From a virus, in IMG/VR virus record IMGVR_UViG_3300045988_048622, positions 101,990 to 165,989 of that record: a stretch of DNA of 64,000 nucleotides; one strand, given 5' to 3'. Position numbers and translations under genes: made by a program. The notes under the pieces were generated by a model. It made no database searches. It was given only the letters and a program-made list of their open reading frames with translations, and had not been told where the DNA came from. This document shows, piece by piece, positions 25,834 through 38,559 of this stretch. How positions within the stretch are numbered: position 1 is the first letter of the stretch; each line of letters starts with the position of its first letter.

Positions 25834-26469
25834 TTATTTCCAAATAAATTTATATGCAGTTTTCAATTTCCCTTTTACACATAAACTAATCTTCTAGCGA
25901 ACACCTCCATTATAAGTTTTAGCATAACCATTGTCTACTAACCAGTGTGCAGCATCGGCTATACTGTTCCAAGTCCTGATAAAGTTATTATTTAAATCAT
26001 ACTGAGATATTGATACAGGTTGCTTGCAACTTCCCAAATAAAATTTGTTCTTTGGTATATTGTTTATATTTATTACTTTAGAAACTGTATCAACAGAACA
26101 TTGCATTTTGGCGGAAACTTCAATCATTGTCATTCCGCTAGTATATAAAGATATTATTTCTTTATAATCGAATAAGATAGCTCCATCGCCTCCCATAGTA
26201 GCATTATAGCCATTTGAGTATGTGTCTAGCTTATCTATAAATTGAATTTCATAAGAAGCTAATTCCTCATCATCACATTCATACAGCTACTCAACTATGA
26301 AGTTCTCGATCCCATACTTATTCATGGCATCATATAAAGGTCTTTTGTTGCATCTTTCTTTCTAAAAGTCATAACAATGTTCCTTCCAGCGCTCTTCTAT
26401 AGAAGTAGTAGTTTTTCCTACGTATCGCTTGCTATTAATTAAATTTGTAATGCAATAAATATATGCCAT
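25834..26469 (-). CDS. GIY-YIG homing endonuclease (I-TevI/Seg-like), read with TAG as a sense codon
   Basis: N-terminal GIY-YIG motif (YIYCITN...RYVGKTT...ERWKEH...YGIENF). Three in-frame TAGs join ORF-track fragments 26362..26625 and 25894..26196 into one 211-aa protein starting MAYIYCITN. Confidence 0.65.
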
Positions 26470-26489
26470 ATTTTTAAATTTAAAATTAG

Positions 26490-26574
26490 AATCCGTGGAG
26501 GGATTCGAACCCTCATTAAAGATTTCTCTTTTCAGTTTTGCAGACTGATGGCTAAACCATTCACCCACACGGAT
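26490..26574 (-). tRNA. type II (Ser-like body) tRNA with anticodon GCA (nominally Cys)
   Basis: Acceptor ATCCGTG/CACGGAT, anticodon stem TCAGT/ACTGA with loop CTGCAAA, long variable arm (AAAGA-GAA-TCTTT), T-arm GAGGGTTCGAATCCCTC; body resembles the tRNA-Ser(GCT) at 30864-30951. Confidence 0.45.
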
Positions 26575-26575
26575 A

Positions 26576-26878
26576 TTAAGATTTAAAGTACTTCTCTCTA
26601 AATGGGATATTAAATAATGAATCATTAATATCCTTATCAGTTATTTCCCTACCTAGAGCCTTCTCCGCACATTCGCTACAGATAAACACATGGTGGTCTG
26701 GATAATAATCTTTACCTCCCCCTTTGTAATAAGAGGAGAATTTCTTTGCAGCTTCTTTTTCAAAATTGGTTAGCTTAAAGTAATTTATTATCTTGTTCCA
26801 AACCTCATCAATAAACATTGGAGAGTTATGGTCTCCATAATAAAATTCTTTATTACATACTGTACACTTTATTTTCAT
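26576..26878 (-). CDS. hypothetical Cys-rich protein
   Basis: 100 aa with CTVC...CSEC cysteine pairs. Confidence 0.3.
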   Translation of the reverse strand: MKIKCTVCNKEFYYGDHNSPMFIDEVWNKIINYFKLTNFEKEAAKKFSSYYKGGGKDYYPDHHVFICSECAEKALGREITDKDINDSLFNIPFREKYFKS

Positions 26879-26893
26879 AAAACTTAAATTTTG

Positions 26894-26965
26894 AGTAGGT
26901 AATGAGAATCGAACTCACATCCTCGGCATGGCAAGCCGATGCACTAACCATTGTGCTATACCCAC
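26894..26965 (-). tRNA. tRNA-Gly (anticodon GCC)
   Basis: Acceptor GTGGGTA/TACCTAC, anticodon stem TCGGC/GCCGA with loop TTGCCAT, T-arm GTGAGTTCGATTCTCAT. Confidence 0.6.
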
Positions 26966-26970
26966 AAATG

Positions 26971-27045
26971 TGCAGGTAGAGAGACTCGAACTCTCCCCTC
27001 CAGATTGGAAGTCTGGCGTGCTCAATCCATTAACACCACACCTGC
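26971..27045 (-). tRNA. tRNA-Gly (anticodon TCC)
   Basis: Acceptor GCAGGTG/TACCTGC, anticodon stem CCAGA/TCTGG with loop CTTCCAA, T-arm GAGAGTTCGAGTCTCTC. Confidence 0.65.
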
Positions 27046-27080
27046 ATAATGGAGAGTTTTACGATACTCTCCTAAACGAA

Positions 27081-27425
27081 TTACTCAGATAACAGCTCCT
27101 GCATATCAATCTCGCCAGCTACCTTAGTAATAGCGATTTTGAACGGATTCCCCTTGATTTTGTCAAACAAGTGAGCATCACGAGTTTCTTTCACCTCGTC
27201 AGGAACATTAAATTTCTTCTTGCCTTTCTCTATAGTTTTCCATGTAACCACCTCGCAGCGAGTTATCTCGTAAACGCTGTCGTTTCGGTCAACGTAAACC
27301 TTGAAAAAGTTCTTTTTGTAGTTGAACTTCTCAACCCTTTTGAAATTCTTGGGATGAGCGTGGAACTTCAAGTCGCATTTTCCATTAGCTAAGAAAATCA
27401 ATTCTGCCATAATAATACTCCGCAT
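27081..27425 (-). CDS. hypothetical protein
   Basis: 114-aa ORF. Confidence 0.35.
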   Translation of the reverse strand: MRSIIMAELIFLANGKCDLKFHAHPKNFKRVEKFNYKKNFFKVYVDRNDSVYEITRCEVVTWKTIEKGKKKFNVPDEVKETRDAHLFDKIKGNPFKIAITKVAGEIDMQELLSE

Positions 27426-27546
27426 AGTCGGAGATTCAAAGTTAAACTATGTTAATTCCAGTCTTTCGTCTGGCACTCCACCTCGTTTTAACCAATAGCT
27501 ACTATTATTCACTATTTGAGCTAAGCTCTAAACTGGGATAAAGGTA

Positions 27547-36556: not shown

Positions 36557-36577
36557 AATCTAATTAATTATAGTGTG

Positions 36578-36661
36578 TGGGAGGTGAGCGAGTCGAACGC
36601 CCCGAGCTATAAAGCAGCGCATTTACAGTGCGCTCCGCTACCATCTACGGAATAACCTCCC
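36578..36661 (-). tRNA. tRNA-Tyr (anticodon GTA), type II
   Basis: Acceptor GGGAGGT/ACCTCCC, anticodon stem GCGCA/TGCGC with loop CTGTAAA, long variable arm. Confidence 0.55.
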
Positions 36662-36667
36662 ATCTTA

Positions 36668-37069
36668 TTAAACTAAAGATACCTTAAAAGGAAGATACTT
36701 CTCTCCTAAGCTTATAGAAGATGTTGCAGAAATTTCAGTTCTTGGAATAGAATAAAATTCAAACTATTCAGTCATTGCGAATATTAAATCGCATTTGTTC
36801 TAGTCGAAGGTTTTTACTTTTCCTGTTCCACTCTGATTTCCTCCACTTACTTTAAGATTTAACTGATAGTTCCCATTATCTTTCTTACAAGTAGTAGTCT
36901 TTACCTATACCTTTAATAGGGTATTTCCAGTATCGACAATTATATCATAGTCTTGGGAGTCGGTTAACGGAATACTTATAGTATAACCTAGCTTTGAATA
37001 GTATGCTATAGCATAAGCTAATCCTACGTTTCCCTACTTAGTAAAGGTTGAAAATTCTCTTAATTCCAT
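36668..37069 (-). CDS. PD-(D/E)XK nuclease (Hjc/RecB-fold small nuclease; homing-endonuclease-like), read with TAG as a sense codon
   Basis: Hand translation MELREFSTFTKQGNVGLAYAIAYYSKLGYTISIPLTDSQDYDIIVDTGNTLLKVQVKTTT... with five in-frame TAGs. The G..G-E/L...G...D..D-I-V-D...VQVK pattern is that of Hjc-like PD-(D/E)XK nucleases; it abuts a tRNA. Confidence 0.45.
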
Positions 37070-37198
37070 AAATTTAATTTTTGATTATTAACTAATCTAT
37101 ATAAATAGACTGATAGTAGTCTATCCAATAGTCTGCTTCCATATCTTCAAAAATCTCTTTAAGCTCTTCGTCAGATAATCCTTCGTACTTGTCTTCCA

Positions 37199-37570
37199 TT
37201 ATAGCTTTCTTCTATTAAATAGATTAAAGTAACTTGCTGAATAAATATCACATAATGCCTTATACTTTTTAGGAACTGGATAGTTAAAGTCATCAAAAGC
37301 AGATTCTTTAATAAATCCGTCTTTGAGAGCCATACTAGCAGTAGTAAAAGCAATGTTACATTTGTTCTTTTGTGCCCATGACATAATATCAGTCATTTTG
37401 GAGTTAAAGTACTCTTTGTCGTTTTCAAGTAGTAAATAGATTTCTACTCTACAAATAGCAGGATTATTAAATCCTTGTTTTCCCTGTCTTAATTCTATCT
37501 TAGACACGAAATTTAAGTCTAACAAATCAGCTATTCTTTCCTTTGCGATAATTCTTGAAATTCTTATCAT
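37199..37570 (-). CDS. hypothetical protein
   Basis: 123-aa ORF. Confidence 0.35.
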   Translation of the reverse strand: MIRISRIIAKERIADLLDLNFVSKIELRQGKQGFNNPAICRVEIYLLLENDKEYFNSKMTDIMSWAQKNKCNIAFTTASMALKDGFIKESAFDDFNYPVPKKYKALCDIYSASYFNLFNRRKL

Positions 37571-37663
37571 CTTCGTGAAAATAAGTAAACCCTATAGTAG
37601 CTATTATAGCTATTTCTAGAGTAATAAATACTAAAAATCCTATTAACATATTCATTAAATTTG

Positions 37664-37746
37664 TGGGAGTGGAAGGATTCGAACCTTCTAAGCCATAGGC
37701 ACTTGATTTACAGTCAAGCCCAACTCTCCAACGTTGGCGCACTCCC
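37664..37746 (-). tRNA. tRNA-Tyr (anticodon GTA), second copy with a different body
   Basis: Acceptor GGGAGTG/CACTCCC, D-stem CCAA/TTGG, anticodon stem CTTGA/TCAAG with loop CTGTAAA, long variable arm, T-arm GAAGGTTCGAATCCTTC. Confidence 0.55.
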
Positions 37747-37951
37747 ATACAATTAACAGATTCGTTCTAATTAACATAGCTGTTACCGTTCTTCCATTTG
37801 GCACCCCAAATCATCTAACAGCTAATAGCCGCAGTGCGTGGTAACGATATTAAGGACATTGCCTCTGTTAATCGGAGTAATCAGGGATTCATCTAAAAGG
37901 CACCCTACAGTCCTAATTGCTGTACTAATAGTGAATGTTGATTACTTCTTG

Positions 37952-38024
37952 TCTGGATAGCAGGACTCGAACCTGCGGTCTCTACATCCCAAATGTAGCA
38001 TCTTACCAACTCGACTATACCCAG
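37952..38024 (-). tRNA. tRNA-Pro (anticodon TGG)
   Basis: Acceptor CTGGGTA/TATCCAG, anticodon stem CTACA/TGTAG with loop TTTGGGA, T-arm GCAGGTTCGAGTCCTGC. Confidence 0.6.
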
Positions 38025-38097
38025 ATGCAAACACGTGTTTCACAACAAATGTTTACTAGCGGAATAAAAGAAAAAGACTACCCCTATTAATAGGGAA

Positions 38098-38559
38098 TTA
38101 TTTCTCTATCTTAGAGAAAGTATAATTTAATCTTTCTATAGATATGATGCAATCTTTTGCAAAGTTTATACCTTTTGTCTAATTATTAGCTGGAGGTTCC
38201 TCCCTAATAGTAATAGAATTTCTATTAGCAACATCACATTCTGGAAATATATAGATGTTATGAAGGTCGCAACATATCATAATATCTATTTCATCCTCGT
38301 TGTATTTGTGAACGGTCCCTTTGTTATAATTATTACTTGTTAAACTAAAGTTCAACGAGTTATTTACAGTTTTACTCGCAGTAGTTTTCACCTAAGTTCT
38401 GTAAAACTTGTTATTATAATATATAACAAAATCAAATGGTAGATTGTCAGACATTGGTAATAAAATATCTAATCCATATTTTGATAATTCACCAATGGCT
38501 ATACGCTCTCCTATTTCTCCGAGCTACTTTTTATTTCTTAATTCGTCTACATTTATCAT
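38098..38559 (-). CDS. PD-(D/E)XK nuclease paralog (Hjc-like), read with TAG as a sense codon
   Basis: Hand translation MINVDELRNKKQLGEIGERIAIGELSKYGLDILLPMSDNLPFDFVIYYNNKFYRTQVKTT... with three in-frame TAGs; same family as 36668-37069; ORF-track fragment 38179..38391 is its middle part. Confidence 0.45.

What the first reader, a model, noticed from the sequence alone, without database searches (positions are those of the whole stretch)
25834..38559. tRNA array colonised by homing-endonuclease-like genes of three families, all needing TAG readthrough
Within the ~20 kb tRNA array sit a GIY-YIG endonuclease (25834-26469, abutting a tRNA), an HNH endonuclease with HTH (28109-28546, abutting tRNA-Leu), and PD-(D/E)XK Hjc-like nucleases (36668-37069, 38098-38559, and a decayed copy at 33925-34310). 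Each is interrupted only by in-frame TAGs, although they lie in the otherwise standard-code block. This is the T4 segB-like pattern, where homing endonuclease genes lodge between tRNA genes. It also implies these genes are translated only once a suppressor tRNA is available.
Basis: partly seen in the sequence, partly recalled or inferred. Interest (0 to 1): 0.6.

Follow-up and report, generated by a model that had tools for sequence, protein, structure and literature searches.

The report
Amber-recoded homing endonucleases replacing phage tRNA genes
In a large human-gut phage, five selfish nuclease genes sit inside the tRNA gene cluster; each can be translated only if the stop codon TAG is read as glutamine, and most travel with their own replacement copy of the tRNA gene they appear to attack.

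Summary
With TAG read as Gln, 25834-26469 is a GIY-YIG nuclease, 28109-28546 is an HTH+HNH nuclease, and 36668-37069 and 38098-38559 are PDDEXK_5 nucleases. Their closest solved relative is the homing endonuclease I-Ssp6803I, with Hjc more distant.

It is intact except for a TAA at codon 7.

All 11 interruptions in the four genes are TAG. In 33 distinct homologues from related phages there are 91 TAG, 0 TAA and 0 TGA. TAG falls on invariant Gln positions, including the Q of the catalytic D...QxK motif. The 69 TAG-free ORFs of the same block include no recognisable homing nuclease.

New findings:
- Every gene is present or absent among 37 related ~190 kb genomes.
- The junctions lie inside tRNA genes, leaving 5' or 3' tRNA stubs.
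- Each nuclease is linked to a divergent, complete tRNA allele.
- PDDEXK_5 genes sit next to tRNAs in 48 of 58 unrelated viral contigs.

Late-only translation is plausible but untested. A recoded intron endonuclease and tRNA-associated SegB are published precedents.

The parts
25834..26469 (-). GIY-YIG + NUMOD1/HTH free-standing homing endonuclease gene with 3 in-frame TAG (codons 36, 61, 192). It is a chimera of two tandem paralogues, GIYa (codons 1 to about 51) and GIYb (the rest).
   Evidence: Pfam GIY-YIG 39.3 bits and PHROG homing endonuclease 6e-28. The alignment with L001, which carries Cys-GIYa-Met-GIYb-Asn, shows a crossover in the RPLYDAMNKYG block. The same chimera occurs in L018 and L015.
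25821..25835 (-). 15-nt stub of the 3' end (T-arm 3' strand plus acceptor) of a tRNA-Met gene that the window has lost. It lies directly after the GIY stop codon.
   Evidence: AATCCTACCTCCGCA flanks the GIYb insert as a direct repeat in L023 and L001, and is the tRNA-Met 3' end in the empty-site genome L028. The breakpoint is in the T-loop, GGTTCG|AATCC.
26489..26574 (-). tRNA-Cys(GCA), 86 nt, 19 nt upstream of the GIY start.
   Evidence: ARAGORN and Rfam.
28109..28546 (-). HTH + HNH free-standing homing endonuclease gene with 1 in-frame TAG (codon 13, inside the HTH).
   Evidence: Pfam GerE/HTH_38 and HNH (19.8 bits), PHROG HNH 7e-21. It is 97-99% identical in 8 genomes whose flanking gene is either the 99% or the 45% allele, and absent from the rest.
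28560..28576 (-). 17-nt stub of the 5' end of the resident tRNA-Leu(UAG) allele, 13 nt upstream of the HNH start.
   Evidence: GGGGTAGTGGCGGAATT equals nt 1-17 of the tRNA-Leu found at empty sites.
28017..28099 (-). Complete tRNA-Leu(UAG), the HNH-linked allele. Its D stem and whole anticodon stem differ from the resident allele.
   Evidence: This allele class occurs with HNH in 7 cases and without it in 2. The resident class occurs with HNH in 0 cases and without it in 25.
33925..34317 (-). Third PDDEXK_5 paralogue (PD3) with TAA at codon 7 and TAG at codons 39 and 61. It has S instead of Q in the xVK motif and is probably inactivated in this genome.
   Evidence: Translation. Orthologues have TAG (L005, L012, L023, L024) or Asp (TAG-free copies in L021, L025, L029) at codon 7. 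Pfam PDDEXK_5 6e-10.
34350..34383 (-). 34-nt stub of the 5' half of the resident tRNA-Ser(UGA). It ends at the junction of the anticodon stem and loop (position 31/32).
   Evidence: Alignment of occupied and empty sites.
33831..33923 (-). Complete tRNA-Ser(UGA), the PD3-linked allele, 1 nt after the PD3 stop.
   Evidence: This allele class occurs with PD3 in 8 cases and without it in 1. The resident class occurs with PD3 in 0 cases and without it in 26.
36668..37069 (-). PDDEXK_5 (I-Ssp6803I-like) homing endonuclease gene PD1 with 4 in-frame TAG (codons 12, 55, 90, 102). TAG55 is the invariant Q of the catalytic QxK motif.
   Evidence: Pfam 6e-19; 2OST 3.6e-7. The fold model has pLDDT 90.9 and its best PDB match is 2OST at 1e-8. 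Q12 and Q55 are conserved in 38 homologues. The gene is present only in the window and L022 among the relatives.
36577..36661 (-). Complete tRNA-Tyr(GUA), the PD1-linked allele, 6 nt after the PD1 stop.
   Evidence: In L022 a 33-nt 5' stub of the resident tRNA-Tyr, broken at the anticodon stem/loop, precedes PD1 plus this allele. The window has lost the stub. The allele occurs with PD1 in 2 of 2 cases, and the resident allele without PD1 in 32 of 32.
38098..38559 (-). PDDEXK_5 homing endonuclease gene PD2 with 3 in-frame TAG (codons 12, 56, 127). TAG56 is the catalytic-motif Q.
   Evidence: Pfam 2e-23. L025 has CAG at codon 56. There are 14 orthologues, and the site is empty in L038, L033, L006 and L029.
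38580..38651 (-). tRNA-Lys(UUU), the unusual allele linked to PD2, 20 nt upstream of the PD2 start.
   Evidence: This allele occurs with PD2 in 14 cases and without it in 4. The canonical allele occurs with PD2 in 0 cases and without it in 14.
38082..38095 (.). Palindrome CCCTATTAATAGGG at the downstream edge of the PD2 insert.
44584..44656 (+). Gln-like suppressor tRNA(CUA) on the late strand.
   Evidence: ARAGORN. It resembles the phage's own tRNA-Gln(UUG) (75% BLAST identity to a relative's tRNA-Gln gene). It is invariant in relatives.
42121..42191 (-). Second tRNA(CUA), on the same strand as the array and upstream of it. Its amino-acid identity is unknown.
   Evidence: An allele with a UUA anticodon occurs in 7 relatives.

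Best explanation
The window comes from a ~185-190 kb human-gut phage distantly related to crAss-like phages. The phage reads TAG as glutamine in its late (structural) genes and carries its own Gln-like tRNA(CUA).

Inside the tRNA array of the otherwise standard-code block sit five free-standing homing endonuclease genes: one GIY-YIG, one HNH and three I-Ssp6803I-like PD-(D/E)XK genes. They use TAG for about half of their Gln codons, just as late genes do, so full-length enzyme can be made only when the suppressor tRNA is active.

Proposed mechanism:
1. In a mixed infection the enzyme cuts the tRNA gene of a genome that lacks it. The PD-(D/E)XK enzymes cut at the anticodon stem-loop, the HNH enzyme in the D-arm region, and the GIY-YIG enzyme at the T-loop.
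2. Repair from the endonuclease-carrying genome copies in the endonuclease gene together with a complete, sequence-divergent and presumably uncuttable copy of the same tRNA.
3. This leaves a stub of the old tRNA gene.

Shown: gene identities, the TAG=Gln requirement, presence/absence, junctions inside tRNA genes, and endonuclease-tRNA-allele linkage.

Inferred: the cleavage sites, immunity of the linked alleles, and late timing.
For: Identity of the genes.

TAG is read as Gln:
- All interruptions are TAG, in the window and in 33 distinct homologues (91 TAG, 0 TAA, 0 TGA).
- By contrast, 431 distinct non-endonuclease array genes (76,690 codons) hold 7 TAG, 5 TAA and 1 TGA.
- TAG aligns with the invariant Q55 and near-invariant Q12 of 38 homologues and with Q of VQVK in the solved I-Ssp6803I.
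- Orthologues swap TAG and CAG (L025, L021).
- A Gln-like tRNA(CUA) is present.
- The TAG share of Gln codons is 52% in the endonuclease genes, 48% in late genes and 0% in other early genes.

Mobility:
- Each gene is present or absent at the same site among 37 related genomes.
- The HNH cassette is 97-99% identical beside flanking alleles that are only 45% identical.

tRNA targeting:
- tRNA stubs sit at the junctions.
- Endonuclease-linked tRNA alleles occur with the endonuclease in 31 cases and without it in 7. Resident alleles occur with it in 0 cases and without it in about 97.

Generality:
- PDDEXK_5 relatives lie within 150 nt of a tRNA in 48 of 58 viral contigs. tRNA-Tyr is the direct neighbour in about 28.
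- tRNA-Tyr 5' stubs lie upstream of the gene in the unrelated contigs L055, L057 and L061.
- 4 of 4 metagenome homologues sit in or beside tRNA clusters, 3 of them within about 110 nt of a tRNA.

Precedents:
- SegB recognises the tRNA T-stem-loop motif (PMC2330249).
- PF11645 endonucleases occur in tRNA-fMet introns at position 33/34 (PMC13011429).
- A recoded intron endonuclease was proposed to be delayed until late infection (bioRxiv 10.1101/2021.08.26.457843).
Against: - There are no expression or cleavage data.
- One tRNA(CUA) gene (42121-42191) lies on the same strand as the array and upstream of it. If it is expressed early and charged, the endonucleases need not be late.
- The HNH gene has only one TAG.
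- TAG-free copies of PD3 exist in three relatives, so TAG is not obligatory for array endonucleases.
- PD3 in the window has a TAA that the CUA tRNAs cannot read, so at least one copy is probably dead.
- PD2 has no tRNA stub at its junction, and its linked tRNA lies upstream rather than downstream.
- Seven linked alleles lack the endonuclease.
- No shared promoter-like motif was found upstream of the endonuclease and late genes.
- All relatives are metagenome assemblies, many from one compendium dataset.
Confidence: 0.8

Rival explanations
1. The TAGs are genuine stops and these are dead, decaying endonuclease pseudogenes left in the tRNA array.
For: PD3 in the window carries a TAA at codon 7. 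The GIY gene is a deletion chimera. L022 has a frameshifted PD2 and L019 a broken GIY.
Against: Across 33 distinct homologue sequences there are 91 in-frame TAG but no TAA or TGA. Random decay in a 35% GC genome would give more TAA than TAG. TAG sits on invariant Gln positions, including the catalytic motif. TAG and CAG are interchanged between orthologues. The cassettes are 97-99% identical in divergent backgrounds, which indicates recent spread.
Confidence: 0.03
2. TAG in these genes is not a timing device. It is neutral drift. Because a suppressor is always present when the selfish genes matter, and the phage gains nothing from their early expression, CAG-to-TAG changes are simply not purged, or the genes arrived from other code-15 phages. 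Translation depends on the suppressor, but no regulatory function was selected.
For: The TAG share of Gln codons in the endonuclease genes (52%) equals that of late genes (48%), as expected at mutational equilibrium. TAG positions turn over between orthologues (TAG to CAG, TTA or TTG; new TAGs appear). TAG-free PD3 copies exist.
Against: The result is the same dependence on the suppressor, so this rival differs only in whether the dependence is adaptive. TAG at codons 12-13 is retained in PD1, PD2 and HNH across all orthologues seen. This weakly suggests retention of an early block.
Confidence: 0.3
3. The nucleases are domesticated rather than selfish. As reported for SegB, they promote amplification or exchange of tRNA genes that protect the phage from host tRNA-cleaving defences. 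The linked divergent tRNA alleles are the selected cargo.
For: SegB drives amplification of tRNA-Tyr to escape Septu (PMC13096335). The window and nearly all relatives keep two different tRNA-Tyr genes. The linked alleles differ mainly in anticodon and D stems. One early ORF matches a tRNA-ligase phosphodiesterase domain.
Against: The patchy presence/absence pattern, broken copies and tRNA stubs are typical of selfish turnover. Nothing here tests any defence interaction.
Confidence: 0.15
4. The PD-(D/E)XK proteins are Hjc-type junction resolvases or tRNA-processing enzymes of the phage, not homing endonucleases.
For: Archaeal Hjc is the second-best fold match (Foldseek E about 2e-3, TM about 0.55).
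Against: I-Ssp6803I matches far better by fold (1e-8) and by sequence (3.6e-7). The genes are dispensable, being present or absent among close relatives. They sit at breakpoints inside tRNA genes.
Confidence: 0.03

Closest known systems
T4 SegB (GIY-YIG free-standing homing endonuclease in the T4 tRNA gene cluster; PMC2330249, PMC13096335)
   Same: It is a free-standing GIY-YIG gene between phage tRNA genes. SegB recognises the conserved tRNA T-stem-loop motif, and the GIYb junction here lies in the T-loop of tRNA-Met. The gene is present or absent among related phages.
   Different: Orthology to SegB was not shown (Pfam SegE_GIY-YIG only 15.9 bits). Here the gene needs TAG readthrough, and the window copy is a chimera of two tandem paralogues.
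I-Ssp6803I (PD-(D/E)XK homing endonuclease, PDB 2OST, Pfam PDDEXK_5), encoded in the group I intron of cyanobacterial tRNA-fMet
   Same: Same Pfam family and fold, with the D...QxK motif having Q in the acidic position. The target is a tRNA gene. The junctions here lie at the anticodon stem/loop (position 31/32), and the cyanobacterial intron sits at 33/34 (PMC13011429).
   Different: These genes are not intron-encoded. Rfam finds no group I intron at gathering threshold, and a complete tRNA gene follows each endonuclease. Here the gene travels with a whole replacement tRNA gene and leaves a dead 5' stub. The host is a phage rather than a cyanobacterium, and the targets are tRNA-Tyr, tRNA-Ser and probably tRNA-Lys.
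Recoded group I intron endonuclease in TGA-recoded 'Agate' phages (Borges et al., bioRxiv 10.1101/2021.08.26.457843)
   Same: A homing endonuclease gene lies in an early region and carries in-frame recoded stop codons. The authors proposed that this prevents endonuclease production until late infection.
   Different: That case involves TGA read as Trp, a single intron-borne gene and one family. This case involves TAG read as Gln, five free-standing genes of three families in a tRNA array, and the same pattern across a whole clade.
Stand-alone PDDEXK_5 genes counted in jumbo gut ('Jug') phages (PMC12880540)
   Same: Stand-alone PDDEXK_5 genes in gut phages, listed among homing endonucleases.
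   Different: In the passages I read, that paper gives only a count (80 genes). Those passages say nothing about targets, a tRNA association or recoding.

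Membership tests
GIY-YIG homing endonucleases (PF01541) | GIY-YIG catalytic domain above the curated threshold | tested here: met
   39.3 bits against a 22.6 cut-off, spanning residues 1-89 across two TAG codons. PHROG homing endonuclease 6e-28.
GIY-YIG homing endonucleases (PF01541) | Mobile: present or absent at the same site in related genomes | tested here: met
   The Cys-Asn interval is empty in L028, L035 and L012, holds one gene in L023, and holds two in L001.
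GIY-YIG homing endonucleases (PF01541) | Site-specific DNA cleavage | not testable with these tools
   Needs a biochemical assay.
SegB orthologue | Specific sequence relationship to T4 SegB | not tested
   Only a weak SegE_GIY-YIG match (15.9 bits, cut-off 25). No SegB profile was available.
HNH homing endonucleases (PF01844) | HNH domain above the curated threshold | tested here: inconclusive
   Pfam HNH 19.8 bits against a 21.4 cut-off. However, PHROG HNH families match at 7e-21 and 4e-16, and CxxC...HH...N...CxxCH is visible in the sequence.
HNH homing endonucleases (PF01844) | Mobile: present or absent at the same site, independent of flanking alleles | tested here: met
   Present in 8 genomes with either the 99% or the 45% allele of the upstream gene, and absent in the others.
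PDDEXK_5 / I-Ssp6803I family (PF11645) | Domain above the curated threshold and similarity to the solved structure | tested here: met
   68.9 and 83.2 bits against a 26.1 cut-off. 2OST matches at 3.6e-7 and 2.7e-4. The fold model's best hit is 2OST, E 1e-8, TM 0.70.
PDDEXK_5 / I-Ssp6803I family (PF11645) | Catalytic D ... Q-x-K motif | tested here: met
   D42 and Q55 are invariant in 35-39 homologues and the xVK lysine is conserved. Q55/Q56 is encoded by TAG in PD1 and PD2. PD3 has S at that position, which is not met for that copy.
PDDEXK_5 / I-Ssp6803I family (PF11645) | Encoded inside a group I intron of a tRNA gene | tested here: not met
   Rfam finds no group I intron at gathering threshold. 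The downstream tRNA is complete on its own, and the upstream piece is a stub of a different allele. These are therefore free-standing relatives, not intron endonucleases.
PDDEXK_5 / I-Ssp6803I family (PF11645) | Targets the anticodon stem-loop region of a tRNA gene | tested here: inconclusive
   The junctions of the PD1 and PD3 cassettes fall at position 31/32 of tRNA-Tyr and tRNA-Ser. Similar tRNA-Tyr stubs occur in unrelated contigs. Cleavage itself was not tested.
Archaeal Hjc Holliday junction resolvase | Closest structural and sequence relative is Hjc | tested here: not met
   Hjc ranks below all four 2OST chains (E 2e-3 against 1e-8). There is no sequence-level hit.
Code-15 (TAG read as Gln) recoded phage with standard-code early block | Late genes full of in-frame TAG, early genes without, and a phage tRNA(CUA) | tested here: met
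   TerL has 16 TAG and portal has 32. Standard-code ORFs cover 29% of the late block, against 86% with TAG as sense. There are two tRNA(CUA) genes, one of them Gln-like.
Code-15 (TAG read as Gln) recoded phage with standard-code early block | TAG aligns with Gln in homologues | tested here: met
   Shown for the endonuclease genes only. Database homologues from recoded phages may themselves have been translated with TAG as Q, but 2OST and distant JGI homologues are independent of that.

The most novel reading that the evidence does not exclude
Free-standing I-Ssp6803I-like PD-(D/E)XK endonucleases form a widespread, so far undescribed class of 'tRNA-gene replacement cassettes' in phages. The proposed mechanism is that the enzyme cuts the anticodon stem-loop DNA of a resident tRNA gene, most often tRNA-Tyr. 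Repair then installs the endonuclease gene plus a complete, divergent and uncuttable copy of that tRNA, leaving a 5' half-tRNA stub. This process would continually diversify the stems of phage tRNAs. That could also change their sensitivity to host tRNA-cleaving defences. In stop-codon-recoded phages the process would be gated by the suppressor tRNA.
Probability: 0.5. Interest if true: 0.72.

Novelty: new variant of a known kind. Interest (0 to 1): 0.62.

Why it matters
- It gives a clade-wide, statistically clean example of selfish nuclease genes adopting the late-gene code inside a standard-code block. This supports the published idea that stop-codon recoding can gate translation of harmful proteins.
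- It extends that idea from one intron endonuclease to free-standing genes of three families.
- It indicates that the PD-(D/E)XK homing endonuclease family, known mainly from cyanobacterial tRNA introns, has a much larger free-standing branch that specialises in phage tRNA arrays and carries replacement tRNA genes.
- This would explain part of the mosaicism and allele diversity of phage tRNA clusters.
- It yields directly testable enzyme-target pairs, with resident and linked alleles of tRNA-Tyr, Ser, Leu and Lys already paired in the data.
- Practically, gene callers that use one code per genome or per block will miss these genes.

Tried and rejected
- **Group I introns around the endonuclease genes.** Rfam at gathering threshold finds only tRNAs and RAGATH-14, so an intron-encoded arrangement is rejected.
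It gives garbage. The correct frame starts at 34317.
- **The 'shared DNA block'.** It has only two matches, and both encode the AIAYY motif. It is not a mobile-element end.
- **Other TAG-bearing ORFs in the early block** (for example 27081-27710, 29546-29881, 24844-25104, 37527-37859, 34871-35218, 16968-17249). The TAGs lie at ORF ends, the ORFs overlap tRNAs or better ORFs, or they have no Pfam match. All were rejected as genes that need readthrough.
- **Clustering all TAG-as-sense ORFs in 40 loci.** This was noisy because TAG terminators fuse neighbouring genes. Only HNH, GIY and PDDEXK clusters and a few unknown ORFs outside the array survived inspection. One of these, a 396-aa ORF with about 7 TAG in 5 relatives, has no Pfam match.
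- **A shared upstream motif between endonuclease and late genes.** Nothing was evident, and there are no Shine-Dalgarno sequences anywhere.
- **Megablast against deposited phages.** It found only three unannotated Mexican faecal contigs.
- **The I-Ssp6803I structure paper (PMC1864971).** It is not held. Statements about its catalytic residues rest on the alignment and on my own knowledge.

Full report
**Setting**

The window is 35% GC. It splits into a minus-strand block (about 1 to 43,760) and a plus-strand block (from about 44,045).

The minus-strand block encodes a helicase, nicotinamide phosphoribosyltransferase, RNase H, SPFH proteins and 19-21 tRNAs. The plus-strand block encodes the large terminase, portal and other structural genes.

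In the minus-strand block, 71 standard-code ORFs plus the RNA genes cover 81% of the sequence. They contain 320 CAA/CAG codons and no internal TAG.

In the plus-strand block, standard-code ORFs cover only 29%. With TAG as a sense codon, coverage rises to 86%, with 127 TAG against 138 CAA/CAG.

Two tRNA(CUA) genes are present. The one at 44584-44656 (+) resembles the phage's own tRNA-Gln(UUG). TerL is 26-29% identical to crAss-like phage terminases. The 37 related IMG/VR contigs are up to 185-193 kb long.

This is therefore a TAG-to-Gln recoded gut phage of the kind described by Borges et al. (bioRxiv 10.1101/2021.08.26.457843).

**The observation**

- With TAG read as Gln, 25834-26469 gives a full GIY-YIG domain plus NUMOD1/HTH.
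- 28109-28546 gives an HTH plus HNH. The Pfam HNH match is marginal, but the PHROG HNH match is 7e-21.
- 36668-37069 and 38098-38559 give PDDEXK_5 at 6e-19 and 2e-23.

The domain matches run across the TAG codons. All eleven interruptions are TAG.

The "decayed copy" was translated in the wrong frame. The real gene is 33925-34317, a third PDDEXK_5 paralogue. It is complete except that codon 7 is TAA. Four relatives have TAG there, and three TAG-free copies have Asp.

The shared 18-mer simply encodes the conserved AIAYY motif.

**TAG is read as Gln, and only in these genes**

- In both PD1 and PD2 one TAG falls on the Q of the VQVK catalytic motif. That Q is present in the crystal-structure protein I-Ssp6803I and is invariant in 38 homologues. 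The TAG at codon 12 falls on a near-invariant Q.
- Orthologues exchange TAG and CAG at these positions (L025, L021).
- Across the related genomes, 33 distinct endonuclease homologue sequences (5,499 codons) contain 91 TAG, 0 TAA and 0 TGA, against 103 CAA/CAG.
- In contrast, 431 distinct sequences of the neighbouring non-endonuclease genes (76,690 codons) contain 7 TAG, 5 TAA and 1 TGA, against 2,585 CAA/CAG.
- In the window, none of 69 TAG-free ORFs of the block matches a homing-endonuclease family.

The association is clean in both directions. The endonuclease genes have the codon usage of late genes. This excludes pseudogene decay as the general explanation.

**Mobility**

Every gene is present or absent at the same site among the relatives.

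- The HNH gene is 97-99% identical in eight genomes whose upstream neighbour is either the 99% or the 45% allele. It is missing from genomes with either allele.
- PD1 occurs only in the window and L022.
- Relatives carry further TAG-bearing HNH genes at other tRNA sites (Arg-Lys, after Asn, after Leu), and GIY-YIG genes next to tRNA-Leu(UAA), tRNA-Pro and tRNA-Leu(UAG).

**Anatomy of the junctions (new)**

- **HNH.** Seventeen nt of the 5' end of the resident tRNA-Leu(UAG) remain upstream of the HNH start (28560-28576). Downstream lies a complete tRNA-Leu whose D stem and anticodon stem are rewritten.
- **PD3.** A 34-nt 5' half of the resident tRNA-Ser(UGA), ending exactly at the anticodon stem/loop boundary, lies upstream (34350-34383). 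A complete, very different tRNA-Ser(UGA) follows the gene.
- **PD1.** L022 shows the same arrangement with a 33-nt tRNA-Tyr stub. The window has lost the stub but keeps the divergent tRNA-Tyr.
- **GIY.** The 15-nt 3' end of tRNA-Met, from the T-loop onward, is repeated after the gene (25821-25835). The window gene is a chimera formed by a crossover between two tandem paralogues, which deleted the tRNA-Met between them. The same chimera is seen in L018 and L015.
- **PD2.** The gene lies 11 nt after an unusual tRNA-Lys allele and before a palindrome. L038 has that allele with an empty site.

Allele linkage is strong. Endonuclease-linked tRNA alleles are found with the endonuclease 31 times and without it 7 times. 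Resident alleles are found with it 0 times and without it about 97 times.

**Interpretation**

The units that move are an endonuclease gene plus a replacement tRNA gene, and the breakpoints lie inside tRNA genes.

By analogy with known homing systems, the enzymes most likely cut the resident tRNA gene near the breakpoint, and the linked allele is resistant. Two published cases support the analogy:

- SegB recognises the tRNA T-stem-loop motif (PMC2330249). This matches the GIY junction.
- PF11645 endonucleases sit in tRNA-fMet introns at position 33/34 (PMC13011429). I-Ssp6803I binds a 23-bp pseudo-palindromic target (PMC3384342). This matches the PD1 and PD3 junctions at position 31/32 of an anticodon stem-loop.

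These cleavage sites are inferred, not shown.

**Generality**

PD1 has 153 database homologues. All carry PF11645, and none has an informative name.

- Four distant homologues on metagenome contigs all lie in or beside tRNA clusters. Three are within about 110 nt of a tRNA and one is about 870 nt away.
- In IMG/VR, 55 of 58 loci have tRNAs within 2.5 kb and 48 have one within 150 nt.
- tRNA-Tyr is the direct neighbour in about 28 of the 58.
- Three unrelated contigs show tRNA-Tyr 5' stubs upstream of the gene.
- Almost all of these genes are TAG-free.

The link between PDDEXK_5 and tRNA arrays is therefore general and independent of recoding. In this clade the genes have additionally taken on the late-gene code.

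The fold model (pLDDT 90.9) matches I-Ssp6803I best (1e-8) and Hjc second (about 2e-3). "Hjc-like" is thus true only at fold level.

**Timing**

Dependence on a suppressor is a direct consequence of the sequence. Late timing is an inference. It is supported by the late-gene-like TAG share and by the published proposal for a recoded intron endonuclease.

It is weakened by three points:

- The second tRNA(CUA) gene lies on the array's own strand, 3.5 kb upstream of PD2.
- TAG-free PD3 copies exist.
- No shared promoter motif was found.

A neutral-drift reading cannot be excluded. Under it, TAG is tolerated because the genes only matter when the suppressor is present.

**Novelty**

Already known:

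- Homing endonucleases in phage tRNA clusters (SegB).
- A recoded endonuclease in an early region (Borges et al.).
- Stand-alone PDDEXK_5 genes in gut phages (PMC12880540, count only).

Not found in my literature searches:

- A free-standing I-Ssp6803I-like branch specialised on phage tRNA genes.
- The endonuclease-plus-replacement-tRNA cassette with half-tRNA stubs.
- The clade-wide, three-family adoption of TAG codons.

I rate this a new variant of known kinds, of moderate to good interest.

Noticed in passing
window 42221-42414 (-): A RAGATH-14 RNA (Rfam RF03145, 183.8 bits against a gathering score of 149.1) lies directly next to the tRNA(CUA) at 42121-42191, on the same strand. Its role beside a suppressor tRNA is unexplained.
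   Followed up: no
window 42121-42191 (-); L007, L010, L013, L030, L034, L038, L039: In seven relatives this tRNA(CUA) is replaced by an allele with anticodon UUA. That anticodon would read UAA, and UAG by wobble. The Gln-like tRNA(CUA) at 44584-44656 does not vary. None of the endonuclease homologues in those genomes contains an in-frame TAA. I did not check whether TAA is recoded elsewhere in them.
   Followed up: partly
window 24631-24686 (-) and 24905-24977 (-): Rfam finds two tRNA-like hits that ARAGORN misses. The first is partial (model positions 9-63, 30.2 bits). It coincides with the point where homology to L003 ends (24646) and homology to L001 begins (24633). This suggests another recombination breakpoint inside a tRNA gene.
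   Followed up: no
L004-L040 between tRNA-Leu(UAG) and the gene equivalent to window 27547-27897: Most relatives carry a TAG-free 471-aa AAA ATPase plus an extra tRNA-Cys (about 1.5 kb) at this site. The window lacks both.
   Followed up: partly
window early block, e.g. 8866-9678, 16347-16661, 23039-23464, 23921-24595: Eight of 71 early ORFs end in TAG. Several have a TAA or TGA a few codons later (8866-9678 ends TAG then TAA), as if backed up against suppression late in infection.
   Followed up: no
window minus-strand block (ORF not pinpointed): One TAG-free early ORF matches the tRNA ligase phosphodiesterase domain (tRNA_lig_CPD, 5e-8). Others match OmpA or an outer-membrane beta-barrel, and two match SPFH/Band_7. 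A tRNA repair function would fit a phage that invests heavily in tRNAs.
   Followed up: no
L004, L009, L026, L031, L038 (e.g. L038:3125-4315): A 396-aa ORF with about 7 in-frame TAG and no Pfam match lies between the suppressor tRNA and the array in five relatives. It is a TAG-bearing gene on the early strand that is not a recognisable endonuclease.
   Followed up: partly
window 37663-37746 and 36577-36661 (-): The window has two quite different tRNA-Tyr(GUA) genes, and nearly all relatives also keep two. The PD1-linked copy scores below Rfam's tRNA threshold, but ARAGORN calls it as a long-variable-arm tRNA.
   Followed up: partly
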